Part shown: one piece after another, positions 6,687 to 32,119 of the stretch
Layout of the letters: each line of letters starts with the position of its first letter
Numbering within the stretch: position 1 is the stretch's first letter
Source of the DNA: an uncultured Campylobacterales bacterium
GTDB taxonomy: Bacteria > Campylobacterota > Campylobacteria > Campylobacterales > CACVAW01
Length of the DNA stretch: 64,000 nt
Direction: 5' to 3'
Assembly (NCBI GenBank): GCA_902727925.1
Contig: CACVAW010000010.1
Coordinates: 72,726-136,725 of the forward strand
Position numbers and translations under genes: made by a program
Notes under the pieces: model-generated
The model's database searches: none
Told to the model about the DNA's origin: nothing
What the model saw: only the letters and a program-made list of their open reading frames with translations

Positions 6687-6687
6687 A

Positions 6688-9273
6688 ATGAATGATAAAT
6701 TTATAAATGGCTCACAATGGGTCAGGTTTGATTGCCATTTACATACAGATAGTGATAATGAGTTTAAATATAATGAAGATAAAAATTATTATATTAGCTC
6801 TTATGTAAATAAATTAAAAGAAAAAAATATTTCTGTTGGAGTTATAACAAATCATAATAAATTTAATTTAGAAGAATTTAAAGCTATTAAAAAAACTGCA
6901 AACAAAAAAGATATATTTGTTATGCCAGGTGTGGAACTATCAGTAAATGATGGAGCAAATGGGATTCATACTCTTATAGTCTTTGATGAAAAAGAATGGT
7001 TAGAAGATGGCAATAATTATATTCAGCAGTTTATTGATGAATCTTTTGTAACTCAAAATCCAAATAATTATCAAAATGAAAATGGAAGAAGTAATGATAA
7101 TCTAATAACTACAATAAAAAAATTAAATGATTATCATAGAGGCTATTTTATTATATTAGCTCATGTTGAAGATAAAAGTGGATTTTTCAATGCATTAGAA
7201 GGTGGAAGAGTTACGGAATTTGGTAAAAACAAGCTATTTAGAGATAGTGTTATAGGTTTTCAAAAAGTTAGAACACGAGATAATATAATAAAGTGGAATA
7301 AATGGCTAGATAATAATTTACCTGCTTTTGTTGAAGGTTCAGATCCTAAAAAAATAGAAGAGATTGGTAAAGGCAAAAAATCATATATCAAGATTGGCGA
7401 TTATAATTTTGAAGCTGTAAAGTTTGCATTACAAGATAATAAGTATAGAGTAAGTAAAGAAACTCAAAATAGAGAAAACTCATTTATTAAATCTATTGCA
7501 TTTGATGGTGGTAAACTAAATGGACAGATAATAGAACTCTCTTCATCTATGAATAATCTTGTAGGGGTTAGGGGTAGTGGAAAATCATCTATAATTGAAG
7601 CTGTTAGATATGGATTAGATTTACCATTTGGAAGTAATAGTGTAGATATTGATTATAAAAATAATTTAGTAAAAGAACTGCTTGGAAGTGCAGGAAAAAT
7701 ATCTATTAAAGCTATAGATAAGGATGATAGAGAGTATCTTATAGAGCGAGTTTATGGACATAGCTTAGAAATAAAAAAAGATGGCGAACTTAAAAATGTC
7801 GGTATTTTGTCAATTTTAAATAAACCTCTATACTTTGGACAAAAAGATTTATCAAGTTATAAAAGTGGTTTTGAGGGAGACCTAATCAATAAATTGATTG
7901 GAGATAAAACAAAAGATATTCAAGTTAGTATTGATGTTAAAAAGCAAGAAGTGAAGTCATTACTTGAAAATATAAAAAAGTATGATAATTTAGATGATAA
8001 AAAAGAAGAGATAACGAGAAAAATCGCAGAGCTCAACTTGAAAATTGATGAGTTTAAAAAACATAAAATAGAAGAGAAATTACAAAAACAGATAGAGTTT
8101 AATAAAGATAAGACTTCTTTGCAAAGTATTAAAAAAAGGCTAAAAGAGTTTAGAAGTGATGTTGATGAATTTTTGTCACAATATGAAAAAGAGAATTTCT
8201 TTGAAAAAATGAAAAATTATGAGTCAAAAGAAAATCAAGATACATTTGATGAAATTTACAAAATTGTTGATGAGACTGAAAAAAGTTTTATAGATATTAC
8301 AGCTGGACTTCATAAATTAATTAATAGTTTTAAAAATATTAATGGTATTGAAAATGATTTTAATACTAAAGCTAAAGAATTAGAGGTTGAGTTTCTTGAA
8401 ATCCAAAGAGAGATAAGCATTCCTAATTTAAGAGCAGATGACTTTATGACTTATACAAAATCTTTACATACACAAAAGATGATGTTGGCTGAGTTAGAAA
8501 AGTCAGGGGCAATAAAAAAAGATATGAATAGCAAACTTGTAAAGCTATTGTCAGAACTTAATGATTTGTATAGAGAAGAGTTCAAAATTATTGAGGTAGA
8601 AATAAACAAAATCAATAGCACTCAAAAGTTTATAAAATTAAAGTCTGAATTTAAAGGAGACAAATCATCTTTTGAACAGTATTTAAAAAATATTTTTGGT
8701 GGAAGTGGTTTAGGTAAGGCTGATTATGAAAAATTATGTACCTATGTAGATTGTAGTGAAGTTTACAATGATTTTGAAAATATTTCATTTGGTGGTAATA
8801 AATTATTAGTATTTAGAGAAAGATTTATGAATTCACTATCTTCGTTATTAACTTTTAAAGTTCCGAATAAAATTGAAATTTTTTATAATGGAAAAGAGTT
8901 AACTAAACATTCACTTGGTCAAAGGTCATCTGCTTTAATTATATTTATATTAACACAGCAAGATAACGACATAATAGTAATCGACCAACCAGAAGATGAT
9001 TTAGATAATCAAACTATTTACAATGAAGTTATAAAAGAGTTAGTTAAACTAAAAAATAAGACTCAGTTTATATTTGCAACACACAATGCAAACATACCAG
9101 TTTTAGGAGATTGTGAACAGATAGTTGTGTGTGATTATGATGAAAATAAAATCAATACAGAGCTTGGAAGTATAGATAACCACGACATTCAAGAGAAGAT
9201 AATAAATATTATGGAGGGCGGAGAAGAAGCCTTTGATAAAAGAAGGGAGATATATAATTTATGGAAACATTAG
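6688..9273 (+). CDS. PHP-domain phosphoesterase fused to a coiled-coil SMC/Rad50-like ABC ATPase
   Basis: N-terminal PHP-like His/Asp/Glu motifs: CHLHTD (about 6733-6750), ITNHN, PGVELS, GIHTLIVF, LAHVED. Walker A GVRGSGKSS (about 7564-7590), then a ~300-aa K/E-rich coiled-coil-like insert, then SLGQRS, Walker B IVIDQPEDDLD (about 8977-9006) and FATHNANI. I prefer ATG 6688 (GGAG 6 nt upstream, 1 nt after the methylase stop) over the track's TTG 6676. Confidence 0.8.
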   Translation: MNDKFINGSQWVRFDCHLHTDSDNEFKYNEDKNYYISSYVNKLKEKNISVGVITNHNKFNLEEFKAIKKTANKKDIFVMPGVELSVNDGANGIHTLIVFDEKEWLEDGNNYIQQFIDESFVTQNPNNYQNENGRSNDNLITTIKKLNDYHRGYFIILAHVEDKSGFFNALEGGRVTEFGKNKLFRDSVIGFQKVRTRDNIIKWNKWLDNNLPAFVEGSDPKKIEEIGKGKKSYIKIGDYNFEAVKFALQDNKYRVSKETQNRENSFIKSIAFDGGKLNGQIIELSSSMNNLVGVRGSGKSSIIEAVRYGLDLPFGSNSVDIDYKNNLVKELLGSAGKISIKAIDKDDREYLIERVYGHSLEIKKDGELKNVGILSILNKPLYFGQKDLSSYKSGFEGDLINKLIGDKTKDIQVSIDVKKQEVKSLLENIKKYDNLDDKKEEITRKIAELNLKIDEFKKHKIEEKLQKQIEFNKDKTSLQSIKKRLKEFRSDVDEFLSQYEKENFFEKMKNYESKENQDTFDEIYKIVDETEKSFIDITAGLHKLINSFKNINGIENDFNTKAKELEVEFLEIQREISIPNLRADDFMTYTKSLHTQKMMLAELEKSGAIKKDMNSKLVKLLSELNDLYREEFKIIEVEINKINSTQKFIKLKSEFKGDKSSFEQYLKNIFGGSGLGKADYEKLCTYVDCSEVYNDFENISFGGNKLLVFRERFMNSLSSLLTFKVPNKIEIFYNGKELTKHSLGQRSSALIIFILTQQDNDIIVIDQPEDDLDNQTIYNEVIKELVKLKNKTQFIFATHNANIPVLGDCEQIVVCDYDENKINTELGSIDNHDIQEKIINIMEGGEEAFDKRREIYNLWKH

Positions 9274-10418
9274 AATTAATTGAAAGAATTTCAAATGGGG
9301 AAGATAGTTATACTCAGTTTAAAGAAAACATAACTAATAATGATAAATTAGCGGAGGAATTAGTTGCTTTTTCAAATTCAAAGGGTGGTGTATTGATTAT
9401 TGGAGTTACTGATAATAACGATATAGCTGGTCTTAGTGATGATGATATTAGACGATTAAATCAACTGGTAGGAAATGTAATTAATTCTAATATAACACCT
9501 CCTATATATCCTATTACAGAAATCAAAATAATTGAACAAAAAAAATTGTTAATAGTTACTGTAGAAGATGGAAGTAATAAACCATACTCTACTAATAAAG
9601 GTATATATCTAACTAAAGCAGGTAGTGATAAAAGAAAAGTTTCACCAGAAGAATTAAAAAGATTATTTGCAGAGTCAAAAAGATTATATGCTGATGAAGA
9701 AATAGTTGTAGGTAGCGATATTAGTGATTTAAATAGTGAACAATTTTATAATTTTTTAGAAAAAGATGATAGTAAAATTTATGAAGAAGTAAAACAAGAC
9801 ACTCTAAGTCTTTCAAGTGTTTTAGAAAATCGTGAGTTATTAAGAAATGACCAATTAACATTAGCAGGAAATTTAATATTTGGTATGAACCCACAAAAGT
9901 ATAATACTTCATTTTATGTAGATTGTGTATATTTTGATGGAGATGAAATATCAGTAGATAAATTTATCTCTAAAAAGACTCTCAAAGGAAGTTTTGAAAA
10001 ATTATTTAATGATAGTTTAGCTTTTGTTGTTAGTAATTTGACTAAAAAACAAGTTGATGATGAGTTTAATACTAAGGGAGAGCTTGAAGTAGATGAACGA
10101 GTATTAACAGAGTTAATCGTAAATGCTTTAGTTCATAGGGATTACTATATTAACTCTTCTATTAAAATTTTTATGTTTCATAATCGTATAGAAATAGTTA
10201 GTCCAGGGAAGTTAACAAATTCTTTAACGGTTGATAAAATTAAGAGTGGTATATCAATTCATAGAAACCCAATCTTAAACTCAATATGTAAAACGGTGTT
10301 GCCATATAGTGGTTATGGGAGTGGTATTAAACGGGCAATTGGTATAAATCCAAGTATTGAATTTATAAACGATATTGATAAAGAAGAGTTTAAGTGTATT
10401 ATTCCAAGAGAAGTGTAG
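9261..10418 (+). CDS. Schlafen/AlbA_2-type putative DNA-binding protein with a C-terminal HATPase_c_4-like region (often annotated RecG-like regulator)
   Basis: N-terminal GEDSYTQFKE...VAFSNSKGGVLIIGV matches the AlbA_2 pattern (E-x-x-x-[EQ]-F-K ... N-x-x-G-G-x-[IL]-x-[IL]-G-[IV]). C-terminal LIVNALVHRDYYINSSIKIFMFHNRIEIVSPGKL is the typical HRDY...PG block. Its ATG overlaps the upstream gene by 13 nt. Confidence 0.7.
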   Translation: METLELIERISNGEDSYTQFKENITNNDKLAEELVAFSNSKGGVLIIGVTDNNDIAGLSDDDIRRLNQLVGNVINSNITPPIYPITEIKIIEQKKLLIVTVEDGSNKPYSTNKGIYLTKAGSDKRKVSPEELKRLFAESKRLYADEEIVVGSDISDLNSEQFYNFLEKDDSKIYEEVKQDTLSLSSVLENRELLRNDQLTLAGNLIFGMNPQKYNTSFYVDCVYFDGDEISVDKFISKKTLKGSFEKLFNDSLAFVVSNLTKKQVDDEFNTKGELEVDERVLTELIVNALVHRDYYINSSIKIFMFHNRIEIVSPGKLTNSLTVDKIKSGISIHRNPILNSICKTVLPYSGYGSGIKRAIGINPSIEFINDIDKEEFKCIIPREV

Positions 10419-10421
10419 ATA

Positions 10422-13400
10422 ATGAAATTTAATGAAAAATTAGTATTAAATTCATACCTATTATCACTTTTAGGTGTAGAAAATTTTGAAGAGTTAGCTA
10501 AAGACTTAAAAGCTTCACGACTTGAAGAGCTTGATGAAAATGATAACTCACTTTTCTATCACGAGTTAAAAGATAAACTTGTAAGCACTCACAAAATCAT
10601 TAGCGATGATAAGCTTCAAGAGTATGATGAAAATATTGTAAGACACACCAAAACTATGGGTCGTGGTATAAAGTGGAAATATTTTCAATACCTATCACTT
10701 CTGTTTATTGAGATTTATTTAGATAAATATTTTGATGATAAAGAACAACTTCTTGAAGACCTAAATATATATCTAAGAGAGTTTAATACAGACATAGATA
10801 AAAAAGAGAAGCTTACAGAATACAATGAAACAGAGTTAAATAAATTAGCTCTATACAATGCTACTGGGTCTGGTAAAACTTTATTACTTCAAATGAACAT
10901 ATTACAGTTTAATCATTATGCTAAAGGTAAAATCAAAATTAATAAAACAGTTTTGATTACTCCTAATGAGGGATTGTCAAATCAACATTTAGAAGAGTTC
11001 AAAGCTTCAAACATAGAAGCAGAAATATTTGATAAAAACAGACAGAACACACTTGTGAATAGTGCTATTGAAATTATTGAAACAACAAAGCTTGGAGATG
11101 AAACTAAAGATAAAACGATTGCTGTTGATAGTTTTGAAGATAATAATTTAGTTTTTATAGATGAAGGACATAATGGAGTAAAAGGCGAAGTAAGAAAAGA
11201 GAACAGAGATAAGCTAAGTGAAAATGGTTTTGCTTTTGAATACTCAGCAACTTTTGCTCAAGCAATAAATAGTGCTGCTGGAACAAAGAAAAAAGAGCTT
11301 GAAAATGAATATACAAAAGCTATTATATTTGATTATAGCTATAAGTATTTTTATAATGATGGCTATGGTAAAGACTATTCAATACTTAACCTAAGTGAAG
11401 ATAGTGATGACATAAAACAGACTTACTTAACAGCTGCACTTCTTAGCTTTTATCAACAGATGAAAATCTATGAGAGTTCAAAGACAACACTAAAGCCTTA
11501 TCTTATTGAAAAGCCTTTGATGGTATTTGTTGGTTCAAGTGTAAATGCCGTTAGAACAGAGAGCAAAAAGCAAGTGTCTGATGTAGTTGATGTATTGTTA
11601 TTTATAGATGAGTTTATCAAGAGTAAGAGTGAAAGTATTGCTAATATAGATAAAATAATGAGCTTTGATAGTGGTCTTCGTAATTCTAAAGGAGTAGATA
11701 TATTTGAGAACAAGTTTAGTTTTTTAGAAAATACAAAACTAAATGCTGCTCAACTGTTTGATGATATGTTAAATCTTATCTTTAATGCAACAAACGGAAC
11801 TCTTCATATAGAGAACCTAAAAGGTGTCGATGGAGAGATAGCCCTTCGTATTGGAGAGAATGAATACTTTGGTGTTATCAATGTAGGCGATAGTCAAAGC
11901 CTTGTAAAGTTATGTGAAGCAAATGGTATGAGTATAGCAAGTAGAGATTTTTCAAGCTCACTGTTTAAGACTATAAATGATACTACTTCAAATCTAAATA
12001 TACTTGTAGGTTCAAAGAAGTTTAGTGAAGGTTGGAGTTCTTGGAGAGTATCCACTATGGGGCTTATGAATATAGGTAAAAAAGAGGGTTCTCAGATTAT
12101 TCAACTATTTGGTCGTGGTGTTAGATTAAAGGGTTATGACTTTTGCTTGAAAAGAAGTAGAGCTATTAGAGGTAAAGAGCTGATGCGAAAATATCAAGCA
12201 GTTGAAACATTAAATATATTTGGACTAAAAGCTGATTATATGAAAGCTTTTAAGGACTACCTAAAAGATGAGGGTGTTCCTACTGATGAGAGAGTTGAAT
12301 TTGTTTTACCTTTGATTTATGATAAAAGCTACAAAACTAAAAAGTTAAAAGTGTTAGACCTTCAAGTTGGTAAAAATTACAAAAAAGAAGTTAAACTTGA
12401 TTTAGAATATAGTGATATTAGAGGTATTAGTAAGAAAGTAGTTCTTAGCTTGTATAAACAAGTTGATATATTAGAGAGTGAAAGCAGAACTGGAAATAAG
12501 TATGATTTAAACAGCGAGATACTCGATAAAGTTCATCTTAGCTTTATGAGTATTGATAATATATTTTTCGCACTACAACAATTCAAAAATGAAAAAAGTT
12601 GGAGTAATCTGAATATCTCAAAAGATGATGTAAATGATTTAATCAATAGAAATGATTGGTATAAACTATTTATTCCAAGCGATGATATGAAAGTAAGTAG
12701 CTTCAAAAATATTTCTAACTTTGAACAGATAATGATTACACTACTTAAAAAGTATATGAAGTCATTTTATGAGTATAAAAAGAGTGAGTGGGAGAGCCAA
12801 TTTTTAGAATATAGAGAATTGGACGAGACAAAGGATACTTCAAACTTAATAGACAACTATACCATTACAGTAGAAGACAAAGAAATAGAGCTTATAGAGA
12901 GGTTAGAAGCTCTTAGAACTATGCTTGAGAGTGGTGTTATAGATGATGCTGAACTTCACAGACTATCTAAGAAAGATTTTAAGGCTTTTAGATTTGATAA
13001 ACACCTATACAATCCACTTGTATTCAAAGACAGAGGTGAAACAGCTCTACAAATAAAACCAATAGAGCTAAACGATGGCGAAAAAGATTTTGTGGAAGAT
13101 TTAGATAGCTACTTGAAACGAAATGGCTCTACTTATGAAGATACAGAGATATATCTACTAAGAAACCAAAGTAAAACAGGACTTGGATTTTTCACAGAGG
13201 GTAATTTCTACCCCGACTTCATTATGTGGATAAAAAAAGATGAAAAACAATATATTAGTTTTATAGACCCTAAAGGGATAAGAAACTTAAACCCAAGTAA
13301 TGACCCAAAAATTAATTTATCAAAAAAAATCAAAGAGATTGAAAATAATCTTGGAGATACGAATATAATATTAAACTCTTTTATAGTTTCTAATACATCA

Positions 13401-13526
13401 TATAATGATATTTTAGACTTACATAATAATATTTCATTAGAAGAATTAGAAGATAAAAATGTGTTATTCCAGCAAGATGATAAGAATGGTTATATTGGTA
13501 AAATGTTTAGTAAGGTATTGAGTTAA
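10422..13526 (+). CDS. Type III Res-like DExH helicase with a C-terminal PD-(D/E)xK nuclease motif, 1034 aa
   Basis: Walker A NATGSGKT (about 10860-10880), motif II FIDEGH (11160-11171), motif III YSATF, FSEGWS, and motif VI QLFGRGVR. C-terminus reads YPDF...(17 aa)...FIDPKG (13211-13274), a PD...DxK pattern. Starts 3 nt after the upstream stop. Confidence 0.8.
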   Translation: MKFNEKLVLNSYLLSLLGVENFEELAKDLKASRLEELDENDNSLFYHELKDKLVSTHKIISDDKLQEYDENIVRHTKTMGRGIKWKYFQYLSLLFIEIYLDKYFDDKEQLLEDLNIYLREFNTDIDKKEKLTEYNETELNKLALYNATGSGKTLLLQMNILQFNHYAKGKIKINKTVLITPNEGLSNQHLEEFKASNIEAEIFDKNRQNTLVNSAIEIIETTKLGDETKDKTIAVDSFEDNNLVFIDEGHNGVKGEVRKENRDKLSENGFAFEYSATFAQAINSAAGTKKKELENEYTKAIIFDYSYKYFYNDGYGKDYSILNLSEDSDDIKQTYLTAALLSFYQQMKIYESSKTTLKPYLIEKPLMVFVGSSVNAVRTESKKQVSDVVDVLLFIDEFIKSKSESIANIDKIMSFDSGLRNSKGVDIFENKFSFLENTKLNAAQLFDDMLNLIFNATNGTLHIENLKGVDGEIALRIGENEYFGVINVGDSQSLVKLCEANGMSIASRDFSSSLFKTINDTTSNLNILVGSKKFSEGWSSWRVSTMGLMNIGKKEGSQIIQLFGRGVRLKGYDFCLKRSRAIRGKELMRKYQAVETLNIFGLKADYMKAFKDYLKDEGVPTDERVEFVLPLIYDKSYKTKKLKVLDLQVGKNYKKEVKLDLEYSDIRGISKKVVLSLYKQVDILESESRTGNKYDLNSEILDKVHLSFMSIDNIFFALQQFKNEKSWSNLNISKDDVNDLINRNDWYKLFIPSDDMKVSSFKNISNFEQIMITLLKKYMKSFYEYKKSEWESQFLEYRELDETKDTSNLIDNYTITVEDKEIELIERLEALRTMLESGVIDDAELHRLSKKDFKAFRFDKHLYNPLVFKDRGETALQIKPIELNDGEKDFVEDLDSYLKRNGSTYEDTEIYLLRNQSKTGLGFFTEGNFYPDFIMWIKKDEKQYISFIDPKGIRNLNPSNDPKINLSKKIKEIENNLGDTNIILNSFIVSNTSYNDILDLHNNISLEELEDKNVLFQQDDKNGYIGKMFSKVLS

Positions 13527-13578
13527 TACAATTTTTTGGTTTTGTTCTGATTATAACTGTAATATGTTACTTTTTAAT

Positions 13579-13600
13579 GAAGTGTCAATTAATACACTTC
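13579..13600 (+). terminator. Weak stem-loop downstream of the five-gene operon
   Basis: GAAGTGT-caattaat-ACACTTC (7-bp stem) lies 53 nt after the stop, with no strong U-tract. Confidence 0.3.
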
Positions 13601-13730
13601 TTAAACAAAAAATTAACAAATTAGCCGATACAAAGACTTAACACACCTAAACAAGCATAAAAGATATAGATATACAAATATTCATTTTTTTGCTAAAATA
13701 GTAATGTATACTATTTTATAAAGGATTAAA

Positions 13731-14201
13731 ATGAAGAAATTAAACTTTTCGGTACTCTTGGCTGGTGTTGCCTTATTTATGGCTTTTGGGATGACTTCTC
13801 TTAGTGCTTGTGCTACTAAAACAGAAACTAAATGTGGATCTGAGAAAATCACTAAATGTGATTCTGGGAAATGTGGTAAAGCAGAGAGAAAAACTAAAAA
13901 ATGTGACAAGTCTAAAAAATGTGATTACAAAAAGAAATGTGATAAGTCTAAAAAGTGTGACTACAAAAAGAAATGTGACAAGTCTAAAAAGTGTGACTAC
14001 AAAAAGAAATGTGATAAGTCTAAAAAGTGTGACTACAAAAAGAAATGTGACAAATCTAAAAAGTGTGACTACAAAAAGAAGTGTGACAAGTCTAAAAAAT
14101 GTGACTACAAAAAGAAATGTGACAAATCTAAAAAGTGTGACTACAAAAAGAAATGTGACAAATCTAAAAAAAGCGATAAATCTAGATTAAATATGTTTTA
14201 A
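13731..14201 (+). CDS. Cys/Lys-rich repeat lipoprotein (KCDKSKKCDYKK x7), HvfA-like low-complexity precursor-type protein
   Basis: Signal peptide MKKLNFSVLLAGVALFMAFGMTSLSAC carries the lipobox L-S-A-C. It is followed by KCGSEKITKCDSGKCG, seven exact 12-aa repeats, and the tail SRLNMF. RBS-like aaagga lies upstream. Confidence 0.75.
   Translation: MKKLNFSVLLAGVALFMAFGMTSLSACATKTETKCGSEKITKCDSGKCGKAERKTKKCDKSKKCDYKKKCDKSKKCDYKKKCDKSKKCDYKKKCDKSKKCDYKKKCDKSKKCDYKKKCDKSKKCDYKKKCDKSKKCDYKKKCDKSKKSDKSRLNMF
13899..14150 (+). repeat. 36-bp in-frame tandem repeat, 7 full copies (a partial 8th extends to ~14171)
   Basis: Copies start at 13899, 13935, 13971, 14007, 14043, 14079 and 14115. They differ only at gac/gat and aaa/aag wobble positions. 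Confidence 0.95.
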
Positions 14202-14388
14202 TCTTAGTAGAGGTGGGTTCTATACTCATCTCTATACCAATATATTCTATATACTCCTTTCTTAAACACAATATTAACAAAACTTCAGAATAAACATTTA
14301 ACCATCCTAATAATACAAGGTCTAGGTATGTATACTTAATTACTATTTTTTAGATAGAATATTGATGTATAAAATTAAAAGGACAGAA

Positions 14389-14748
14389 ATGAAAAAATTA
14401 AATTTTTCGTTATTATTCGTTGGAGTTGCTTTATTTATAGGTCTTGGTATAACCACTCTTAGTGCTTGTGGCAGTAAAAGTGGTGATGCTAAATGTGGTT
14501 CTGATAAAGTAACTAAATGTGATAGTGGAAAATGTGGAGCTTCTAAAAAAGCTACAAAATGTGGAAGTAAATGTGGTGATGCAAAATGTGCTTCAGACAA
14601 ATCTTCAAAATGTGGTGATGCTAAATGTGGCGCTAAAAAAGCTACTAAGTGTGGAACTGCTAAATGTGGTACAGAAAGCAAAGCAGCTACAAAATGTGGT
14701 GCTGGTAAATGTGGAAGTGACAAAGAATCTAAATTAGATATGTTTTAA
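14389..14748 (+). CDS. Cys-rich KCG-repeat lipoprotein, paralogue of 13731-14201 (HvfA-like)
   Basis: MKKLNFSLLFVGVALFIGLGITTLSAC (lipobox) is followed by 12 K-C-[GDA] motifs and the tail SKLDMF. I prefer ATG 14389 (aaaagga upstream) over the track start 14362, because it aligns with the paralogue's N-terminus. Confidence 0.75.
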   Translation: MKKLNFSLLFVGVALFIGLGITTLSACGSKSGDAKCGSDKVTKCDSGKCGASKKATKCGSKCGDAKCASDKSSKCGDAKCGAKKATKCGTAKCGTESKAATKCGAGKCGSDKESKLDMF

Positions 14749-14754
14749 TTTTTT

Positions 14755-14780
14755 TAAGGAGTGACATTGTTCACTCCTTA
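14755..14780. terminator. Stem-loop shared by convergent genes (10-bp stem)
   Basis: TAAGGAGTGA-cattgt-TCACTCCTTA is preceded by a T-run on the + strand. It sits 7 nt after the KCG gene stop and overlaps the end of the extended minus-strand frame. Confidence 0.5.
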
Positions 14781-15110
14781 GTCTAGTTTATTAAGAGCTT
14801 TTAAAGTTTCTACCTTCACATTATCAATATCTTTTATAATTAAGTTTACACTCGTTTGATTGATCTCAATATTTTCCCAATTATCTTCCTACGTATTTAG
14901 TAGTTTGTTTGTGATTGACGGAATTGGCTGGGCTAGTACTTTTGACAAATCTGAAATTGTAAGCATATAGCTCCATCCGACAATAGCGTTTCCTTTGTTA
15001 TCATATCTTTTTAGAAATACAAGTTGTTGAAGTTTATTGAGCTTTGAGATAATCTCAAACGAAGCATTTCTTTGATTTCTGTTATGTTCTGTTATGTTCT
15101 GTTTTTTCAT
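14778..15110 (-). pseudogene. Small orphan ORF interrupted by an in-frame TAG (73 codons + TAG + 36 codons)
   Basis: The track ORF 14889-15110 ends at TAG (14889-14891). The same frame stays open for 36 more codons (EDNWENIEINQTSVNLIIKDIDNVKVETLKALNKLD) up to TAA at 14778-14780 in the terminator hairpin. A 10-bp tandem duplication cagaacataa x2 lies near the 5' end. Confidence 0.3.
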
Positions 15111-15549
15111 TACGCCAAGTATTATAACTAAGGCTTGATACTGCTACAATAAGACTGATTATAGCTACAAGGTTTCTTCATATTTGGCTAAGTATAGTTC
15201 TTTTCATTAATTACTTCTTTTGTTCATTATTATGTATAAATTTTATTTCAACTGTTGTTGTATAATAGATACTTTGAGTATCTGAGAGAATACCATTTAC
15301 TTTTATTTGCTCTATTATTTTATCAGGAAAAACTTTTTGAAGGATTTTTGTTAGTTTACTTATAAATAAACCTTTGTTTAATATTACTGTAATAATACTT
15401 TTGAGCTTTTTAAAGCACTTATTTTGTCGATTAACTCTTTTCCTTTAAAAAAGAAAGAAATTCATTATTTTTTAGGTGTAAAAAGGGAAGGAAAAACCTC
15501 TAATATAAAATTCATCTTTTATTTTAGCGTTTATAGAGTGGACAAAAAG

Positions 15550-15655
15550 ATTATTACTCCACTATTAAAATATAGAAAATAATTTTTTCTATGATACCCT
15601 AAAAATAGTACTCTTATGCCATTTAAATTGCTATATTTAATTGGTGCGGTAATAA
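15550..15655. repeat. 106-bp perfect inverted repeat, left copy
   Basis: Exact reverse complement of 32014-32119, checked base by base. It contains the short ORF ATG 15617 MPFKLLYLIGAVII-stop. Confidence 0.95.
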
Positions 15656-15824
15656 TTTAATTCGTGAAACCTTTTTCTACATTTAGGTACAAGATTTTTA
15701 CTCTTTTTTCAAAATTAACTAAGAACAGATAGATACCTAATAAAATTCTATACAAAAAACATCTTCTTAATTAGATATAATAAACCAATTATTAAAACTG
15801 ATATAAAATCAAATAAGGACTCTA

Positions 15825-16994
15825 ATGCTTTCAAAATTTTCTTTTGGTACATACAGAACCACAAATAAAGACACTTCACACAAAGAAGCTCTAAAACACG
15901 CTATTGATGTAGGTATAAGAGACATCGATACATCATCAAACTATATGTTCGGAGACGCAGAACTCTTGATAGCAGATGTACTAAAAGAAACTAATAAAAA
16001 AGTCAAAGTAGTTTCAAAAGGTGGATATATACAAGGACCAACTCTTGAGCGTGTAAAAAATGGCTACAAAGTGGAAGACCTAGTAGAGTACGACCCAAAT
16101 TGCTTTCACTCTATATCTCCTGATTTTTTAGATGACCAAATAGAAAAATCTTTACAAAGACTTGGAACTGAATGCATAGATACCTACCTACTACATAATC
16201 CAGAATATTATTTAATGGCTGAGTTGAAAAAATCTGAAGATATAAAACATCATCAAAACATCATGCAAGAGCGTATCAAAAAAGCGTTTGGTACACTCGA
16301 ACAAAAAGTTAAAGAGGGCAAAATAAAAAACTATGGTATCAGTTCAAACTCGTTTGCCAAAAAAAGTGATGATAAGTACTTTTTAGAGTACAAAAACTTG
16401 ATAAAACACGCAAAAAATATAGCGGGAGAAGGTCACCATCTAAAAGTACTACAACTTCCTATGAACTTACTTGAAACTCATGGAGAGGCCTGTGCAAAGT
16501 GGGGATATGAAAACAACCTTGAAATCCATATAAACAGACCACTAAACGCTTTTCATCCTAAACTAGGAATGGTAAGACTAGCTAATTATTCAAGATGTAG
16601 CGAATATTTAGAACTACTACAAAAGTCCAAAGACCTATCACCAGAGCTTACTCCAATCATAACTCAACTTGAATCAATACTCACAGACTTTAGATGGGCA
16701 GGAGATATTGATGATACATTGACATACAAAGTCATCCCTCATATCAACAAAAATGTCACTTTAAATACAAATGAAGAGATAGATATATTAAGTGATTTTT
16801 TAGATTGTTATAAGGCTGAAGCAAAACATTTATTATCAGTAAAAACAAAATATGAACTTAAAAAAAGAGATATAAACGTACAAGAATCCATAGATAAAAC
16901 TGCTATAAAATACCTCAAAGATAACCCACACATAACAAAAATATTAATAGGTATGAGAAGCAAAGAATATGTAGACAGAGTCTTACAATACTAG
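15825..16994 (+). CDS. Aldo/keto reductase family oxidoreductase
   Basis: N-terminal FGTYRT...ALKHAIDVGIRDIDTSSNYMFGDAE and later IDTYLLHNPE follow the AKR pattern. Confidence 0.75.
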   Translation: MLSKFSFGTYRTTNKDTSHKEALKHAIDVGIRDIDTSSNYMFGDAELLIADVLKETNKKVKVVSKGGYIQGPTLERVKNGYKVEDLVEYDPNCFHSISPDFLDDQIEKSLQRLGTECIDTYLLHNPEYYLMAELKKSEDIKHHQNIMQERIKKAFGTLEQKVKEGKIKNYGISSNSFAKKSDDKYFLEYKNLIKHAKNIAGEGHHLKVLQLPMNLLETHGEACAKWGYENNLEIHINRPLNAFHPKLGMVRLANYSRCSEYLELLQKSKDLSPELTPIITQLESILTDFRWAGDIDDTLTYKVIPHINKNVTLNTNEEIDILSDFLDCYKAEAKHLLSVKTKYELKKRDINVQESIDKTAIKYLKDNPHITKILIGMRSKEYVDRVLQY

Positions 16995-17332: not shown

Positions 17333-18247
17333 ATGATGTATACAGTCGGACATAAAATACCTGATTCAGATTCAACTTGTAGTGCACTCTCACTTGCCTA
17401 TCTTATGAATAAGCTAGGACGCGAAGCAACTCCTGCTGTTCAAGGTAAACTCAACCCTGAAACAAAATTCATACTTAAAACTTTTGGCTTTGAGGCTCCT
17501 CAGCTGAAACAAAATTTTGATGGAGACAATGTGTTTATCACTGATCACTCAGACCGTGCTCAAAGTCATGATTTAACAAAGGCTACAATTGTAGGTATCG
17601 TAGATCATCATAAGCTAGGAGACATGACAAGTAAAGCTCCACTTGAATGCTGGATAAGACCTGTGGGATGTACAAATACTATAGTAAAAGAGATGTATGA
17701 CTTTCATAAAGTTGCCATTCCAAAGGGTATTGCAGGACTAATGATGAGCGCAATTCTTAGTGATACTGTGATATTTAAGTCTCCTACTTGTACACCTGTT
17801 GATATTGCGGCTGTTGAAGAACTAGCCCTCATAGCAGAAGTTGACGACTACAGAGCATTTGCACTTGAGATGTTCAAAGTAAAATCAAAAATCGAAGGAA
17901 CTCCAACTAAAGACCTTGTACTAAGAGATTTTAAAGATTTTGAGATGAATGGTAAAAAAATAGGTGTTGGACAACTTGAGGTTGTAGATATATCACTTTT
18001 TGACGATATAAAAGATGACTTAATGAATGACTTAAAAACATTCAAAAACGATGGACGAAACAGTATGTTACTACTTCTTACAGATATTATAAAAGAGGGA
18101 AGTGAACTTCTTGTTGTTAGTGATGATGAAGCAAAAATAGAAGATGCCTTTGATGTAAAACTTACAAATAATAAAGCTTGGCTAGAGGGTGTACTAAGCC
18201 GTAAAAAGCAAGTGATTCCAAATCTTGAAACCGCATTTGCAAACTAA
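17333..18247 (+). CDS. ppaC: Manganese-dependent inorganic pyrophosphatase (family II, DHH)
   Basis: GHKIPDSDSTCSA, ITDHSD, VDHHKLGD and SAILSDTVIFKSPT are DHH/DHHA2 family II PPase motifs. Confidence 0.9.
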   Translation: MMYTVGHKIPDSDSTCSALSLAYLMNKLGREATPAVQGKLNPETKFILKTFGFEAPQLKQNFDGDNVFITDHSDRAQSHDLTKATIVGIVDHHKLGDMTSKAPLECWIRPVGCTNTIVKEMYDFHKVAIPKGIAGLMMSAILSDTVIFKSPTCTPVDIAAVEELALIAEVDDYRAFALEMFKVKSKIEGTPTKDLVLRDFKDFEMNGKKIGVGQLEVVDISLFDDIKDDLMNDLKTFKNDGRNSMLLLLTDIIKEGSELLVVSDDEAKIEDAFDVKLTNNKAWLEGVLSRKKQVIPNLETAFAN

Positions 18248-28789: not shown

Positions 28790-29224
28790 GTGAATAGGAC
28801 TTTTATAATGATTTTTGATAAATTAGATAAATATAGTGATTTGGGACTTTTGATACTTAGAGTAGGTATAGGAATAATGTTTATATGTCATGGATACCCT
28901 AAAATTTTGGATGGAGTTGATGAGTGGACAAGACTTGGTAGTAATCTTAGTCATCTTGGAATTAATTTTGCTCCTACTTTTATGGGTCTTAGTGCTGCTT
29001 TAGCAGAATTTGTTGGTGGGGTACTTCTAGTTTTAGGGTTACTAACTAGGCCTGCGTGTATATTTTTATGTATCACTATGACGGTAGCTACTGTTATGCA
29101 TATTAGTGAAGAACATGATTTCAAGAAATATTCTCACGCACTTGAAGCTGCGATATTGTTTTTCAGTCTTGTTTTTATTGGGCCTGGTAAATATTCGTTT
29201 GATAGAAAATTTTCTATGCACTAA
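28790..29224 (+). CDS. DoxX family membrane protein
   Basis: LLILRVGIGIMFICHGYPK... with four TM segments, typical of DoxX. The start may be the internal ATG 28808. Confidence 0.7.
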   Translation: MNRTFIMIFDKLDKYSDLGLLILRVGIGIMFICHGYPKILDGVDEWTRLGSNLSHLGINFAPTFMGLSAALAEFVGGVLLVLGLLTRPACIFLCITMTVATVMHISEEHDFKKYSHALEAAILFFSLVFIGPGKYSFDRKFSMH

Positions 29225-30247: not shown

Positions 30248-31975
30248 TTATTTTACTTGTGTTCTATATATTAGAGTAAAACAAGGTATTGGTCCAGTAG
30301 TAGTTCTTGCATTCATAATTCCAGAAAATTGTATTTCAAAAGATTTTACATCATCATCAAAGTCTGGTGATGGGGATATTGTTATATTTGAGTCATTTTT
30401 AAATGTGACATCAGATGGATAATCTAGGCTTAGTCCACTATTCATAGTACTTGTCTCTGGAGAACAATTATTGTCACTGAAGATAAATGGTGTTCCAGTA
30501 GAATTTAGATTTCCAACAAAAAGACTTAAATTTTCGGGTAGGGTATCTCTTATAGTTACTGTGCCTGTATCTGGAGATTTGTCTCCTAAATTTTTTATTA
30601 TGAGAGTATAATCAATATATGCTCCTGGAATTGCCTTAGCATTATCTTCATTGTTTACATTGTCCCAAATAGTTTGATTTGTTTTGCTTAGTGTTAGAAT
30701 CACTTCTCTTTTTTTACCCACTGTATAAACTCCATCACTAGGTAAGTAAGAAAAGTTTATTTTCCCATCACTCATTACAGCTGTACTAACTTCACTAAAG
30801 TTTCCTGTTGTTCCTGATCTATAAAGAAGTCCATAAGTTTCACCGTTTTCTATATCTAATCCTATTGTAGAAGCATTAAACTCTAGGTTAACAAGTCCAT
30901 CTGTACCTGTAGTATCTATGTACCATGTTCTACTGGCTCTATCTGTGTAATTGCTACTAATTGCTAAATCAGATGACGTAACAGAAGTTGGAGGAGTAGT
31001 TGTAAGATAGTTTACTCCTACAGTCATATATTTACCATTGGAAAGAAAAGTATTGTTAGTAATAGTTATTCCTTGCGAAGTTGCTACGCTCTGAATACCA
31101 TCACTTTCTTCTCCAATACCAGCAACAAAAAAATCATATTTTCCATTAGCGCTTGTATCACCATTATATATGTCTATATAAGTAGAAATATTTTGAAAAG
31201 ATTTATCCCATTTTGATGATAGGTAGTTGTTTAAAATATTTTTTTGAGCGGAGTTTAGAGTAGCTTGATAAAAAATGGCTTCAAATATACGTCCGTTAAA
31301 AGCTAAGTTTGTTGAAGTCGCAAAATTACCAAGAGCAAAACTAGAATTTATGTTTACATATGGTCCAGCTCCTCCGTCAGATAGTTGAATTCTTCCATCT
31401 CTAAGTACTTGTTGAGAGGTAGTGTTAGCAATAAAATTCCAAATATATTGTTGAGCTATTGTAATAGAAAATACACCTGAAAGTCTAGCTGGATTACCAC
31501 AACATGTGCCATGGTCAAAATAAGTTCTATTATTCCCCCAAGGTGTATGGGCACTTATCCTACTGTTTGTTTGAAGTGCTGAGTTTGATGAGAATAAAAA
31601 ATGATTTTCTATTCTATCCGTAGCTGCTACAATATATATTTCTGCTATTCGTATAGGTGTACCTGTATAAATATCGGTAGCTCTTCTAAGAGAATCATTA
31701 GCCCCATCATAGTCAACTCCATGTCTTTCTGCTGAAATAGAATTTTGTCTATATCTTGGTCTTGATACATTAGCAGGAGCTGATAAATCATTGTTATTGA
31801 CTGATTTATCAGACCAGTCTTGAATAAAGGAATTATTATTTGGATTGTTTGTATAGTTATTATCTGCATCAAGATCAACTGCGTCATACCATGCCCGTTG
31901 GCTAGTACTAATATCATCAGGAGCTGCTGAGTTAAGAAGCGTAATTAATGTGAATACGGCGAGTAGTACTTTCAC
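30248..31975 (-). CDS. Secreted LamG-like (concanavalin-type jelly-roll) domain protein with beta-rich C-terminal domains
   Basis: I prefer GTG 31975, preceded by AAAGGGA, which gives the signal peptide VKVLLAVFTLITLLNSAAP. The track's ATG 32053 has no SD and lies inside the 106-bp repeat. LamG-like block ...FNGRIFEAIFYQATLNSAQKNILNNYLSSKW. Confidence 0.7.
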   Translation of the reverse strand: MKVLLAVFTLITLLNSAAPDDISTSQRAWYDAVDLDADNNYTNNPNNNSFIQDWSDKSVNNNDLSAPANVSRPRYRQNSISAERHGVDYDGANDSLRRATDIYTGTPIRIAEIYIVAATDRIENHFLFSSNSALQTNSRISAHTPWGNNRTYFDHGTCCGNPARLSGVFSITIAQQYIWNFIANTTSQQVLRDGRIQLSDGGAGPYVNINSSFALGNFATSTNLAFNGRIFEAIFYQATLNSAQKNILNNYLSSKWDKSFQNISTYIDIYNGDTSANGKYDFFVAGIGEESDGIQSVATSQGITITNNTFLSNGKYMTVGVNYLTTTPPTSVTSSDLAISSNYTDRASRTWYIDTTGTDGLVNLEFNASTIGLDIENGETYGLLYRSGTTGNFSEVSTAVMSDGKINFSYLPSDGVYTVGKKREVILTLSKTNQTIWDNVNNEDNAKAIPGAYIDYTLIIKNLGDKSPDTGTVTIRDTLPENLSLFVGNLNSTGTPFIFSDNNCSPETSTMNSGLSLDYPSDVTFKNDSNITISPSPDFDDDVKSFEIQFSGIMNARTTTGPIPCFTLIYRTQVK

Positions 31976-32013
31976 TAAATTCCCTTTTTGTTCTATATGT
32001 TGTATATTATAAT

Positions 32014-32119
32014 TTATTACCGCACCAATTAAATATAGCAATTTAAATGGCATAAGAGTACTATTTTTAGGGTATCATAGAAAAAATTATTTTCTATATT
32101 TTAATAGTGGAGTAATAAT
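32014..32119. repeat. 106-bp perfect inverted repeat, right copy
   Basis: Exact reverse complement of 15550-15655. It lies 39 nt upstream of the preferred GTG start of the LamG-like gene. Confidence 0.95.

What the first reader, a model, noticed from the sequence alone, without database searches (positions are those of the whole stretch)
13600..14748. Tandem pair of Cys/Lys-rich KCG/KCD-repeat lipoproteins resembling HvfA/MNIO-type RiPP precursors, with no modifying enzyme nearby
Seen: the two adjacent genes share a near-identical signal peptide with lipobox (MKKLNFS[VL]LL...[ST]LSAC). They also share a block KCGS[ED]K[IV]TKCDSGKCG and a C-terminal tail [RK]L[ND]MF-stop. Their upstream regions are collinear, including a 21-nt box cttaaaca.a..attaacaaa (13600-13620 and 14261-14281, 19 of 21 matching), each ~130 nt before its ATG. 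So the whole cassette, promoter included, was duplicated. The second protein has 12 K-C-[GDA] motifs and the first has 17 Cys after the lipobox Cys. Established, as I recall it: Haemophilus HvfA and related bufferin-type precursors are signal-peptide-bearing, low-complexity proteins with repeated (E)GKCG motifs. Their Cys residues are converted to metal-binding heterocycle/thioamide groups by a DUF692 multinuclear non-haem iron (MNIO) enzyme and a DUF2063 partner, usually encoded next door. Seen here: no DUF692- or DUF2063-like ORF is in the window. Inference: these are orphan precursors modified in trans, unmodified Cys-rich periplasmic metal buffers, or a new lipid-anchored variant. The KCDKSKKCDYKK version has no counterpart I know of.
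Basis: partly seen in the sequence, partly recalled or inferred. Interest (0 to 1): 0.7.

Follow-up and report, generated by a model that had tools for sequence, protein, structure and literature searches.

The report
Orphan Cys/Lys-repeat lipoprotein gene pair
Two neighbouring genes in an uncultured Campylobacterales genome encode small, probably lipid-anchored, cysteine- and lysine-rich proteins from a branch of the copper-binding HvfA family that seems to work without the iron enzyme that normally modifies it chemically.

Summary
Two paralogous genes, P1 (13731-14201) and P2 (14389-14748), share a signal peptide with an LSAC lipobox, a KCGSxKxTKCDSGKCG block, an L[ND]MF tail and a collinear upstream region with a 21-nt box. 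One detail is wrong: P1 has 18 Cys after the lipobox Cys, not 17.

P2 passes NCBI's HvfA-family domain model. P1 does not, and its KCDKSKKCDYKK repeat has no counterpart among 1.84 billion representative proteins.

All close relatives come from Sulfurimonas or related Campylobacterota. In 18 informative loci of that clade, none has an MNIO or DUF2063 gene nearby, against 12 of 15 canonical EGKCG loci. The 12 Campylobacterota reference genomes I could see in a published census have neither gene.

The relatives sit in copper-resistance islands (CusCBA, CopA ATPase, CopB, multicopper oxidase) beside an HvfX-like DoxX gene, and these genes share a direct-repeat promoter motif.

Best reading: unmodified, thiolate-based, membrane-tethered metal buffers. 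Modification in trans is unlikely but not excluded, because the rest of the genome could not be searched. Lipidated HvfA-type proteins are already known (NedA).

Verdict: a new variant of a known kind, of moderate interest.

The parts
13600..13620 (+). Upstream box 1, CTTAAACAAAAAATTAACAAA. It reads as a direct repeat, TTAAACA-N5-TTAACAA.
   Evidence: Only two copies exist in the window, against 0.01 expected by chance. Both differences from box 2 fall in the spacer between the half-sites.
13691..13699 (+). Extended -10-like element TGCTAAAAT upstream of P1
   Evidence: It resembles the TGCTACAAT found about 30 nt before the ATG of the Sulfurimonas homologues. This is a consensus match only.
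13721..13725 (+). Ribosome-binding site AAGGA of P1
   Evidence: Read directly from the sequence.
13731..14201 (+). P1 gene, 156 aa. Signal peptide and lipobox (Cys27), a KCGSEKITKCDSGKCG block, 7 KCDKSKKCDYKK units, and the tail SRLNMF.
13731..13811 (+). P1 signal peptide ending in the lipobox L-S-A-C
   Evidence: Sequence motif, plus homology to the family's signal peptides.
13899..14170 (+). In-frame 36-nt tandem repeat, 7.6 copies, 94% matches
   Evidence: All variation between units is synonymous.
14261..14281 (+). Upstream box 2, CTTAAACACAATATTAACAAA
14379..14383 (+). Ribosome-binding site AAGGA of P2
   Evidence: Read directly from the sequence.
14389..14748 (+). P2 gene, 119 aa. Signal peptide and lipobox (Cys27), 12 K-C-[GDA] motifs, and the tail SKLDMF.
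14754..14781 (+). Terminator-like hairpin after P2, 11 pairs followed by a T-rich tail
   Evidence: It is the only terminator-like site in 13450-15900.

Best explanation
P1 and P2 are real, recently duplicated genes. They encode small secreted proteins that are probably lipid-anchored (type II signal peptide) and intrinsically disordered. They derive from a Campylobacterota (Sulfurimonas-type) branch of the HvfA/oxazolin 'KCG-repeat' family. That branch keeps the Sec signal, the K-C-G core and the C-x4-C pairs. It has Ala where HvfA has Glu at position -3, and it has no HvfB (MNIO) or HvfC (DUF2063) gene next door. In Sulfurimonas the branch belongs to a copper-resistance island and regulon. 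I therefore infer that the cysteines stay as thiols and bind soft metal ions, Cu(I) first and possibly Ag, Zn or Cd, directly as thiolates. The proteins would then act as membrane-tethered periplasmic or surface metal buffers, in the manner of a metallothionein or of unmodified HvfA. P1 is a lineage-specific derivative. An in-frame 36-nt unit expanded to seven KCDKSKKCDYKK copies, giving 18 evenly spaced Cys (C-x5-C) in a polycationic chain. Shown here: gene reality, family relationship, absence of MNIO/DUF2063 in cis, and the copper context of the relatives. Inferred: lipidation, metal binding, absence of modification, and the role of the 21-nt box as a regulator site.
For: Gene reality. P1 and P2 are paralogues (E = 1e-23). 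Both have ribosome-binding sites and a terminator follows P2. All repeat variation in P1 is synonymous. Family. P2 hits NF050137 at 36.5 bits against a 19.5-bit cut-off. It has 52 homologues, all Sulfurimonas or Helicobacteraceae. In the family, K at -1 is 94% conserved and G at +1 is 89%. Position -3 is Ala in 48% of cases, versus Glu in canonical proteins. No MNIO. HMMs built from 30 MNIO and 24 DUF2063 proteins of canonical loci found nothing in 372,821 nt of the window plus Campylobacterota loci, nor in four further loci. Pfam identity of the HMM sources was checked. Precomputed Pfam annotation agrees. MNIO is adjacent in 0 of 18 loci against 12 of 15 canonical loci, p = 1.3e-6. All 12 Campylobacterota reference genomes seen in PMC12452194 Table S2 have DUF692 = 0 and DUF2063 = 0. 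Copper link. Type-1 KCG genes lie beside an HvfX-like DoxX (133-145 bits with a DoxX HMM built from hvf loci). They lie within 10 kb of a CopA-type ATPase, CopB, a multicopper oxidase or CusCBA. Lipobox KCGAGKCG proteins follow directly after CusA or CopA. A TACACA-N5-TACACA promoter motif is shared by the KCG, DoxX and cus promoters. Tandem partners of the KCG genes in L007 and L018 are metallothionein-like and rich in CxC motifs. Unmodified HvfA itself binds about 2-3 Cu(I) (PMC11252979). The mature part of P2 is predicted to be disordered.
Against: In the window the pair is not in a copper context. It abuts a restriction/defence island. The only DoxX is 14 kb away and only distantly related to the hvf type (58 bits). 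The window's RND pump is a TetR-regulated multidrug type. The rest of the MAG could not be searched, so an MNIO elsewhere is not excluded. About 20% of canonical EGKCG loci also lack an adjacent MNIO, and stand-alone precursor genes are known (PMC12452194). P1 departs from the family in every respect except Lys at -1: it has Asp at +1, C-x5-C spacing and 42% Lys. It fails the HvfA model, so its chemistry could differ. Free thiols in a periplasm may oxidise to disulfides. Lipidation is inferred from a motif only, and in the homologues the same LSA is a type I cleavage site.
Confidence: 0.55

Rival explanations
1. They are orphan RiPP precursors modified in trans. An MNIO/DUF2063 pair encoded elsewhere in the genome converts the Cys residues to 5-thiooxazoles before export, as HvfBC does for HvfA and NedBC does for the lipidated NedA.
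For: P2 passes the HvfA-family domain model. HvfB modifies even very small HvfA fragments (PMC11252979). Stand-alone precursor genes exist (PMC12452194). 3 of 15 canonical loci lacked an adjacent MNIO. Lipidated oxazolins exist (PMC13056109).
Against: 0 of 18 Campylobacterota loci have MNIO or DUF2063 within 6-10 kb. All 12 Campylobacterota genomes seen in the census have none, including two Sulfurimonas genomes. The Glu at -3 of the EGKCG motif is missing. P1 lacks the CG dipeptide and the C-x4-C spacing.
Confidence: 0.1
2. A different, non-MNIO enzyme set modifies or charges the cysteines. Candidates are products of the co-regulated neighbours in Sulfurimonas: DoxX, the glutamate-synthase-like FMN protein, the GMC oxidoreductase with Gluconate_2-dh3, or the MBL-fold hydrolase. 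Alternatively the Cys residues carry sulfane sulfur (persulfide or polysulfide) in these sulfur oxidisers.
For: DoxX, the Glu_synthase-family gene, GMC/Gluconate_2-dh3 and MBL genes are conserved neighbours that share the promoter motif. Lactamase_B_2 genes also accompany 54% of the CxxxxC-type MNIO clusters (PMC12452194). DoxX/DoxD proteins are linked to thiol or thiosulfate:quinone redox chemistry (PMC11252979 discussion).
Against: None of these genes is next to P1/P2 in the window. The Glu_synthase homologue is 31 kb away and DoxX is 14 kb away. No precedent or direct evidence exists. The shared regulon is equally well explained by a general copper or redox stress response.
Confidence: 0.12
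3. They are not metal proteins. They are polycationic, repeat-variable surface lipoproteins that mediate adhesion, bind polyanions or vary antigenically, with the 36-nt repeat serving as a length-variation device.
For: Mature P1 is 42% Lys. The near-identical in-frame tandem repeat is prone to copy-number change. The pair lies at the edge of a variable defence island. There is no metal gene in the window.
Against: Cys is strictly periodic and conserved, and the relatives are embedded in copper loci. P2 has no comparable near-identical repeat; its repeats are only 73-78% matching.
Confidence: 0.15
4. They are spurious or decaying ORFs produced by a low-complexity repeat, with no function.
For: Neither protein is present in the 15-billion-protein collection, although neighbouring proteins of the same MAG are. 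Long antisense ORFs overlap both genes.
Against: Both have a signal peptide, a ribosome-binding site and a terminator. They are homologous to at least 52 proteins. All repeat variation is synonymous. The paralogue pair keeps its frame, lipobox and tail.
Confidence: 0.03

Closest known systems
HvfA / oxazolin (Buf_EGKCG family; NCBIfam NF050137 and NF050188), Haemophilus influenzae and about 2,000 mostly Pseudomonadota proteins
   Same: A small Sec-exported low-complexity protein with repeated K-C-G and paired Cys five residues apart. P2 passes the NF050137 domain model. Relatives keep an HvfX-like DoxX neighbour and a copper association.
   Different: No hvfB (MNIO) or hvfC (DUF2063) lies nearby, either here or anywhere in the Campylobacterota clade sampled. 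Position -3 is Ala or variable rather than Glu. The 17-residue double-EGKCG repeat is absent. The equivalog model NF050188 is failed (13 bits against 95). P1 fails both models.
NedA, the lipidated oxazolin of Neisseria dentiae (a DAG-RiPP; PMC13056109)
   Same: A type II signal peptide with a lipobox, followed by KCG-type Cys repeats. It is a membrane-tethered copper-binding peptide.
   Different: NedA is encoded with NedB (MNIO) and NedC and is modified by them. It has canonical EGKCG motifs. P1 and P2 have no such partners and a different flanking sequence.
Sulfurimonas-type 'type-1' KCG proteins (unnamed; for example P0001, P0028, P0051; some labelled HvfA family by NCBI)
   Same: These are the closest true homologues, at 40-56% identity. 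They share the MKKLN signal peptide, the AGKCG-type motifs, the terminal KCGAGKCG, and tandem duplication in some genomes (L007, L018).
   Different: They have a type I cleavage site (LSA followed by a non-Cys residue), no lipobox and no L[ND]MF tail: 0 of 52 have either. They sit next to DoxX in copper islands, whereas the window pair sits beside a defence island.
Campylobacterota 'type-2' lipobox KCGAGKCG proteins encoded after CusA or CopA (for example P0138, P0142, P0214, P0240)
   Same: They are lipoproteins of the same phylum with KCGAGKCG motifs and no MNIO. An NMF motif directly follows the first KCGAGKCG, reminiscent of the L[ND]MF tail of P1 and P2.
   Different: They have a conserved, non-repetitive central domain of about 60 residues with two Cys and a different signal peptide. 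They are embedded in efflux operons.
Metallothioneins, Csp copper-storage proteins and CusF-type periplasmic metallochaperones
   Same: The proposed mode of action is the same: many thiolates bind soft metal ions with no cofactor or modification, and the apo form is disordered.
   Different: There is no sequence homology. Metallothioneins and Csp3 are mostly cytosolic, and CusF uses Met, His and Trp. P1 and P2 are exported, probably lipidated and extremely Lys-rich.

Membership tests
HvfA family (NCBIfam NF050137, KCGExKCG_twice domain) | Score above the curated cut-off of the domain model | tested here: met
   P2 scores 36.5 bits against a 19.5-bit cut-off. P1 has no hit, so the feature is met for P2 only.
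HvfA proper (NCBIfam NF050188, equivalog) | Score above the equivalog cut-off of 95 bits | tested here: not met
   P2 scores 13 bits and P1 has no hit.
HvfA / oxazolin (Buf_EGKCG) | [quoted passage not shown] | tested here: not met
   Neither protein contains an EGKCG motif. In the Campylobacterota family, position -3 is Ala in 48% of cases and Glu is not among the five commonest residues. In canonical proteins it is nearly always Glu, at 296 sites. This comparison set was selected by the EGKCG pattern itself.
HvfA / oxazolin (Buf_EGKCG) | Paired Cys five residues apart (C-x4-C) | tested here: inconclusive
   In P2, 5 of 11 Cys-Cys intervals are 5 residues. In P1, 14 of 17 are 6 residues, that is C-x5-C.
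HvfA / oxazolin (Buf_EGKCG) | MNIO (PF05114) and DUF2063 (PF09836) genes adjacent to the precursor gene | tested here: not met
   None is found in the 64-kb window. Among related loci the count is 0 of 18, against 12 of 15 canonical loci.
HvfA / oxazolin (Buf_EGKCG) | MNIO/DUF2063 present somewhere in the genome, allowing modification in trans | not testable with these tools
   Only 64 kb of the 163.8-kb contig was available, and no other part of the MAG. Indirect evidence: the 12 Campylobacterota genomes seen in PMC12452194 Table S2 have none.
HvfA / oxazolin (Buf_EGKCG) | N-terminal Sec signal peptide | tested here: met
   Both proteins have an MKK n-region, a hydrophobic core of about 20 residues and an LSA|C site. 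The region aligns with the signal peptides of 45 homologues and is the only confident helix in the AF2 model. No dedicated signal-peptide predictor was available.
HvfA / oxazolin (Buf_EGKCG) | DoxX (HvfX) gene in the locus | tested here: not met
   The nearest DoxX is at 28790-29221, 14 kb away, and scores 58 bits with the hvf-locus DoxX HMM. In Sulfurimonas relatives it lies 0.1-3.5 kb away and scores 133-145 bits.
HvfA / oxazolin (Buf_EGKCG) | Cys converted to 5-thiooxazole (-4 Da per Cys, ~302-305 nm absorbance) and Cu(I) binding | not testable with these tools
   This needs mass spectrometry, UV-visible spectroscopy and metal titration.
DAG-RiPP / lipidated oxazolin (NedA type) | Lipobox with an invariant Cys at the type II signal peptidase site | tested here: met
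   L-S-A-C27 is present in both paralogues. This is motif-level evidence only. None of the 52 type-1 homologues has it.
DAG-RiPP / lipidated oxazolin (NedA type) | Co-encoded MNIO that modifies the core before export | tested here: not met
   Same evidence as for the adjacent MNIO test.
Campylobacterota type-1 KCG proteins (unnamed clade) | Homologous MKKLN signal peptide plus a K-C-G-rich mature part ending in KCGxGKCG | tested here: met
   P2 shows 40-56% identity to 52 proteins, with E-values down to 2.6e-13. P1 is linked through P2 and through P0114.
Campylobacterota type-1 KCG proteins (unnamed clade) | Location in the DoxX / Glu_synthase / copper-resistance island with the TACACA-N5-TACACA promoter motif | tested here: not met
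   The window pair lies between a type III R-M/DrmD-like island and housekeeping genes. The motif pattern (regex) does not match upstream of P1 or P2.
Metallothionein (Pfam and NCBIfam families) | Sequence match to any metallothionein family | tested here: not met
   There are no Pfam hits for P1 or P2. The resemblance is functional only.

The most novel reading that the evidence does not exclude
The Campylobacterota KCG proteins, including this lipobox pair, would be a 'de-RiPPed' or differently processed offshoot of the oxazolin family. In one version they bind copper with bare thiolates as exported, lipid-anchored metallothionein analogues. In the more novel version, the co-regulated non-MNIO neighbours (DoxX, the glutamate-synthase-like FMN protein, the GMC oxidoreductase, the MBL hydrolase) install or maintain a so far unknown cysteine chemistry. 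P1's C-x5-C KCDKSKKCDYKK array would then be a new metal- or sulfur-binding module.
Probability: 0.12. Interest if true: 0.8.

Novelty: new variant of a known kind. Interest (0 to 1): 0.5.

Why it matters
HvfA, oxazolin and bufferin proteins are currently understood, and automatically annotated, as RiPP metallophores whose copper binding depends on MNIO-made heterocycles. A phylum-wide branch keeps the KCG scaffold, the DoxX partner and the copper context but has no MNIO. Such a branch would show that the scaffold can work unmodified or with other chemistry. It would explain why DoxX is conserved in these operons. It would also flag a systematic over-annotation: NCBI and UniRef label these proteins 'oxazolone/thioamide-modified RiPP metallophore'. 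The window pair adds two things: a lipid-anchored form derived independently, and a new Lys/Cys/Asp repeat. Metal handling matters for vent and sulfidic-habitat Campylobacterota. The practical test is simple: intact mass plus metal titration.

Tried and rejected
- Exact look-ups of P1 and P2 (including the 128-aa TTG-start form) found nothing. Neither protein is on record in the gene-position index or in the 15-billion-protein collection, although RuvB, HemE and the pyrophosphatase of the same MAG are. The source contig could not be retrieved.
- A word-indexed homologue search with P1 returned no hit at E <= 1e-3.
- An exhaustive phmmer search with P1 returned 82 hits. All were periodic low-complexity proteins, apart from one N-terminal relative (P0114) and one look-alike (P0118).
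- tblastn of P2 against plasmids gave no match, probably because of low-complexity filtering. It therefore could not supply MNIO sequences. I obtained those instead from a metagenome scan for the EGKCGEGKCG coding pattern.
- AlphaFold2 of P2 with 46 sequences gave pLDDT 48, with the mature part disordered. No fold search was worthwhile.
- PDB sequence searches found no relatives. Rfam and tRNA scans around the locus found nothing.
- A YcaO gene lies 1.2 kb upstream of the KCG gene in L002-L004. I considered it as an alternative Cys-modifying enzyme and rejected it. It is the long E. coli-type YcaO and is not conserved in other loci.
- P1's upstream region shares the 9-mer ACAAAGACT with the Sulfurimonas motif. 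I rejected this as evidence because the 9-mer occurs 17 times in 325 kb and the full motif pattern does not match.
- The window's RND pump was checked as a possible metal link. It is a TetR-regulated multidrug type 40 kb away.
- The paper library holds nothing on this MAG or on Sulfurimonas KCG proteins.
Full report
**1. What is in the sequence**

The region holds two same-strand genes. P1 is 13731-14201 (156 aa). P2 is 14389-14748 (119 aa), counted from the ATG that follows an AAGGA ribosome-binding site.

- Both proteins start MKKLNFS, followed by about 20 hydrophobic residues and L-S-A-C27.
- Both share the block KCGS[ED]K[IV]TKCDSGKCG.
- They end in SRLNMF (P1) and SKLDMF (P2).
- BLASTP of one against the other gives 60% identity over 78 residues, E = 1e-23.
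- The cassettes repeat every 658-661 nt.

It occurs nowhere else in the window, against 0.01 matches expected by chance. The rest of the upstream region is only 70% identical, against 61 +/- 4.6% for shuffled sequence. So the box is the one clearly conserved upstream element. Both differences between the two boxes fall between two half-sites, TTAAACA and TTAACAA.

A terminator-like hairpin follows P2 at 14754-14781.

P1 contains a 36-nt tandem repeat of 7.6 copies. Seven units encode exactly KCDKSKKCDYKK. The five variable DNA columns are all synonymous third-position changes, although only 13% of possible single-base changes in the unit are synonymous. This is good evidence that P1 is translated and under selection.

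**2. Source and surroundings**

Neighbouring proteins are identical to entries of a MAG called 'uncultured Campylobacterales bacterium', on a contig of 163,805 bp. P1 and P2 themselves are absent from the 15-billion-protein collection. They were probably never called as genes.

- Upstream (771-13526) lies a defence island: a DrmD-like SNF2 helicase, a type III methyltransferase, a Ppl-like PHP-ATPase, a Schlafen/AlbA_2 protein and a type III restriction enzyme.
- Downstream are housekeeping genes.
- Pfam scans of essentially every non-overlapping ORF of 100 aa or more found no PF05114 (MNIO/DUF692) and no PF09836 (DUF2063).
- The only DoxX is at 28790-29221.
- The only RND pump is a TetR-regulated multidrug type at 53014-59561.

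**3. Family**

P2 passes NCBI's HvfA-family domain model NF050137 (36.5 bits against a 19.5-bit cut-off). It fails the HvfA equivalog model (13 bits against 95). P1 matches neither model, and Pfam has nothing for either protein.

P2 has 52 homologues at 40-56% identity, 81-120 aa long. All that carry an organism name come from Sulfurimonas or Helicobacteraceae. A scan of one genome per species found 16 loci, 15 of them titled Sulfurimonas and one an unclassified bacterial MAG. I call this group 'type 1'. Its consensus is MKKLNLxALLLGAALFxGLGATSLSA, then KCGAGKCG, a variable stretch, and a terminal KCGAGKCG.

In this clade Lys at -1 is 94% conserved, Gly at +1 is 89% conserved and the C-x4-C spacing is kept. 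Position -3, however, is Ala in 48% of cases, where canonical proteins have Glu. None of the 52 has a lipobox or the L[ND]MF tail.

P1 has no homologue in the word-indexed search. An exhaustive phmmer search of 1.84 billion representative proteins found only periodic low-complexity proteins. The exceptions were one N-terminal relative (P0114) and one look-alike with KKCDKKKCDGKK motifs (P0118). The KCD repeat therefore appears lineage-specific. Its Cys spacing is C-x5-C.

AlphaFold2 predicts only the signal helix of P2, and the mature part is disordered. No relative has a solved structure.

**4. Is the modifying enzyme really missing?**

I built a positive control. A metagenome scan for DNA encoding EGKCGEGKCG gave 80 loci. 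Their conserved neighbours are an MNIO (PF05114, 348 bits), a DUF2063/NGO1945_C protein and DoxX. MNIO and DUF2063 are present in 23 of 30 loci with at least 2 kb downstream, and in 12 of 15 with at least 2 kb on both sides. The MNIO gene starts 2-267 nt from the precursor gene.

HMMs made from 30 of these MNIO proteins and 24 of the DUF2063 proteins were then run against six-frame translations.

- In 372,821 nt of the window plus the Campylobacterota loci they found nothing. The best MNIO E-value was 2.9. The best DUF2063 hit was E = 0.0099, on a 45-residue fragment at 14 bits.
- In four further loci they also found nothing.
- Precomputed Pfam annotation of nine loci agrees.
- Adjacency is 0 of 18 against 12 of 15, Fisher p = 1.3e-6.

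A published census lists per-genome counts of DUF692 and DUF2063 (PMC12452194, Table S2). All 12 Campylobacterota rows I could see have zero of each. They include Sulfurimonas denitrificans and S. autotrophica, Sulfuricurvum, Sulfurovum, Nitratiruptor, Nautilia, Wolinella, Helicobacter, Aliarcobacter, Sulfurospirillum and Nitratifractor. Those particular genomes also lack KCG proteins by the authors' model. The KCG-bearing genomes and this MAG could not be searched whole, and that remains the main gap.

**5. What the relatives are associated with**

The DoxX HMM built from hvf loci scores the DoxX genes beside Sulfurimonas type-1 genes at 133-145 bits. It scores the window's DoxX at only 58 bits. 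So Sulfurimonas keeps an hvfA-like gene plus an hvfX-like gene without hvfB or hvfC.

The wider type-1 locus is conserved. In order it holds:

- a DUF234 protein on the opposite strand;
- the KCG gene, sometimes as a tandem pair whose second member is metallothionein-like and rich in CxC motifs (L007, L018);
- an MBL-fold hydrolase and/or an HD-GYP protein;
- DoxX;
- a glutamate-synthase-family FMN protein;
- Gluconate_2-dh3 and a GMC oxidoreductase.

In S. aquatica, S. paralvinellae and another Sulfurimonas, this block runs into cusCBA, a CopA-type P-ATPase with a heavy-metal-binding domain, CopB and a multicopper oxidase.

A second family, 'type 2', has at least 467 proteins. Its members have a lipobox, then KCGAGKCG-ANMFDG, a central domain of about 60 residues, and a further KCGAGKCG. 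All 12 members I inspected have a lipobox. In all four contexts examined, the type-2 gene directly follows CusA or the CopA ATPase, and in two of the four (L146, L147) an OmpR-type two-component system follows the ATPase.

A direct-repeat motif, TACACA-N5-TACACA, sits 8-10 nt before a TAnAAT element. It precedes the type-1 KCG genes, DoxX, the MBL gene, the small-ORF/Gluconate_2-dh3/GMC operon and the cus operon. That suggests a single regulon, probably under a response regulator.

**6. Mechanism**

Shown:
- The genes are real.
- They belong to the Campylobacterota branch of the HvfA-like family.
- No MNIO or DUF2063 gene lies in cis.
- The branch lives in copper loci.

Established elsewhere:
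- HvfA binds Cu(I), and even unmodified HvfA binds about 2-3 Cu(I) (PMC11252979).
- The modification is now assigned as 5-thiooxazole (bioRxiv 10.64898/2026.07.17.739211).
- Lipidated oxazolins exist (NedA, PMC13056109).

Inferred: P1 and P2 are exported, are acylated at Cys27, and act as tethered thiolate metal buffers. P1 would be a high-capacity polycationic derivative made by repeat expansion. The 21-nt box has the architecture of a response-regulator site, with two 7-nt half-sites 12 nt apart, but it does not match the Sulfurimonas motif. I put this explanation at 0.55.

The rivals and their probabilities are:
- Trans-modification by an unseen MNIO: 0.10.
- A different modifying or sulfur-charging chemistry involving the co-regulated neighbours: 0.12.
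- A non-metal role as a polycationic, repeat-variable surface lipoprotein: 0.15.
- Spurious ORFs: 0.03.

The main weakness is that the window pair, unlike its relatives, sits beside a defence island with no copper gene or hvf-type DoxX nearby.

**7. Comparison and novelty**

The pair works like, and descends from, the HvfA/oxazolin family. It fails several defining features of that family: the EGKCG motif, the adjacent MNIO and DUF2063 genes, and the equivalog model. I therefore do not file it as an oxazolin.

Lipid anchoring is not new, given NedA and the type-2 family. Stand-alone precursor genes are also known (PMC12452194).

Three things are new:
- The whole Campylobacterota branch appears to lack the MNIO enzyme while databases name it a 'modified RiPP metallophore'.
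- A type-1 protein here has acquired a lipobox and an L[ND]MF tail.
- The KCDKSKKCDYKK C-x5-C array has no counterpart.

I rate it a new variant of a known kind, with interest 0.5.

Noticed in passing
window 771-13526: A five-gene defence island lies immediately upstream of P1. It holds a DrmD-like SNF2 helicase (682 bits), a type III methyltransferase (749 bits), a Ppl-like PHP-ATPase, a Schlafen/AlbA_2 + HATPase_c_4 protein and a type III restriction enzyme (675 bits). This is a type III R-M system with DISARM-like and Ppl-like additions.
   Followed up: partly
L011 4679 and 5148; L016 9939 and 10388; L013 13477(-) and 13869; L001 11333(-) and 11370; L145 654 and 11285(-); L148 10214(-); others: In Sulfurimonas a direct repeat TACACA-N5-(C)TACACA sits 8-10 nt before a TAnAAT box. 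It precedes the type-1 KCG genes, DoxX, the MBL gene, the 63-aa/Gluconate_2-dh3/GMC operon and the OEP-CusB-CusA-KCG-lipoprotein operon. This looks like a response-regulator regulon linking all of them.
   Followed up: partly
L002 9928-9943; L018 9929-9944 (variants in L007, L010): A perfect 16-nt palindrome, TGTAACATATGTTACA, lies about 20 nt upstream of the -10 element of some type-1 KCG genes. It may be a repressor operator that replaces or adds to the direct-repeat motif.
   Followed up: no
L014 18439-18807(-); L145 6001-6360; L146 6001-6453; L148 6001-6381; L149 18379-18753(-): A large Campylobacterota family (at least 467 proteins) of lipobox proteins has KCGAGKCG at both ends of a conserved central domain. 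Its genes lie directly after CusA or a CopA-type ATPase. The family is uncharacterised, and NCBI/UniRef label some members HvfA family.
   Followed up: partly
L007 10348-10668; L018 10414-10836: The tandem partners of the type-1 KCG genes carry metallothionein-like CKCGxxCKCGDNCxCG clusters behind the same signal peptide. They get no NCBIfam or Pfam hit.
   Followed up: no
window 13731-14748: P1 and P2 are absent from the 15-billion-protein collection, although proteins encoded further along the same contig (for example 17333-18247, 47278-48300 and 50864-51874) are present. The two genes seem to have been missed by the MAG's annotation.
   Followed up: partly
window 14790-15824: About 1 kb has no convincing gene. 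The only sizeable ORF (14889-15110, minus strand, 73 aa) has no Pfam or PADLOC match. A short duplication, tgttatgttc x2, sits at 15081-15100. There is no tRNA or Rfam match. This may be the decayed edge of the island.
   Followed up: partly
P0118 (132 aa): An unrelated signal-peptide protein carries KKCDKKKCDGKK motifs twice. It is the nearest look-alike of the P1 repeat (E = 2.4e-4) and is probably convergent. Its context was not examined.
   Followed up: no
window 14183-14198 and 14730-14745; type-2 proteins: The L[ND]MF C-termini of P1 and P2 resemble the invariant NMF that directly follows the first KCGAGKCG in type-2 lipoproteins (KCGAGKCGANMFDG). This could be a shared short functional motif or a coincidence.
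   Followed up: no
window 30248-32053(-), 44066-45094(-), 35795-36412(-), 34422-34790(-): Four ORFs of 601, 342, 205 and 122 aa have no Pfam match at the thresholds used.
   Followed up: no
L002-L004 6993-8762: A long E. coli-type YcaO gene (YcaO + YcaO_C) lies 1.2 kb upstream of the KCG gene in one Helicobacteraceae lineage. It is not conserved in other loci.
   Followed up: partly
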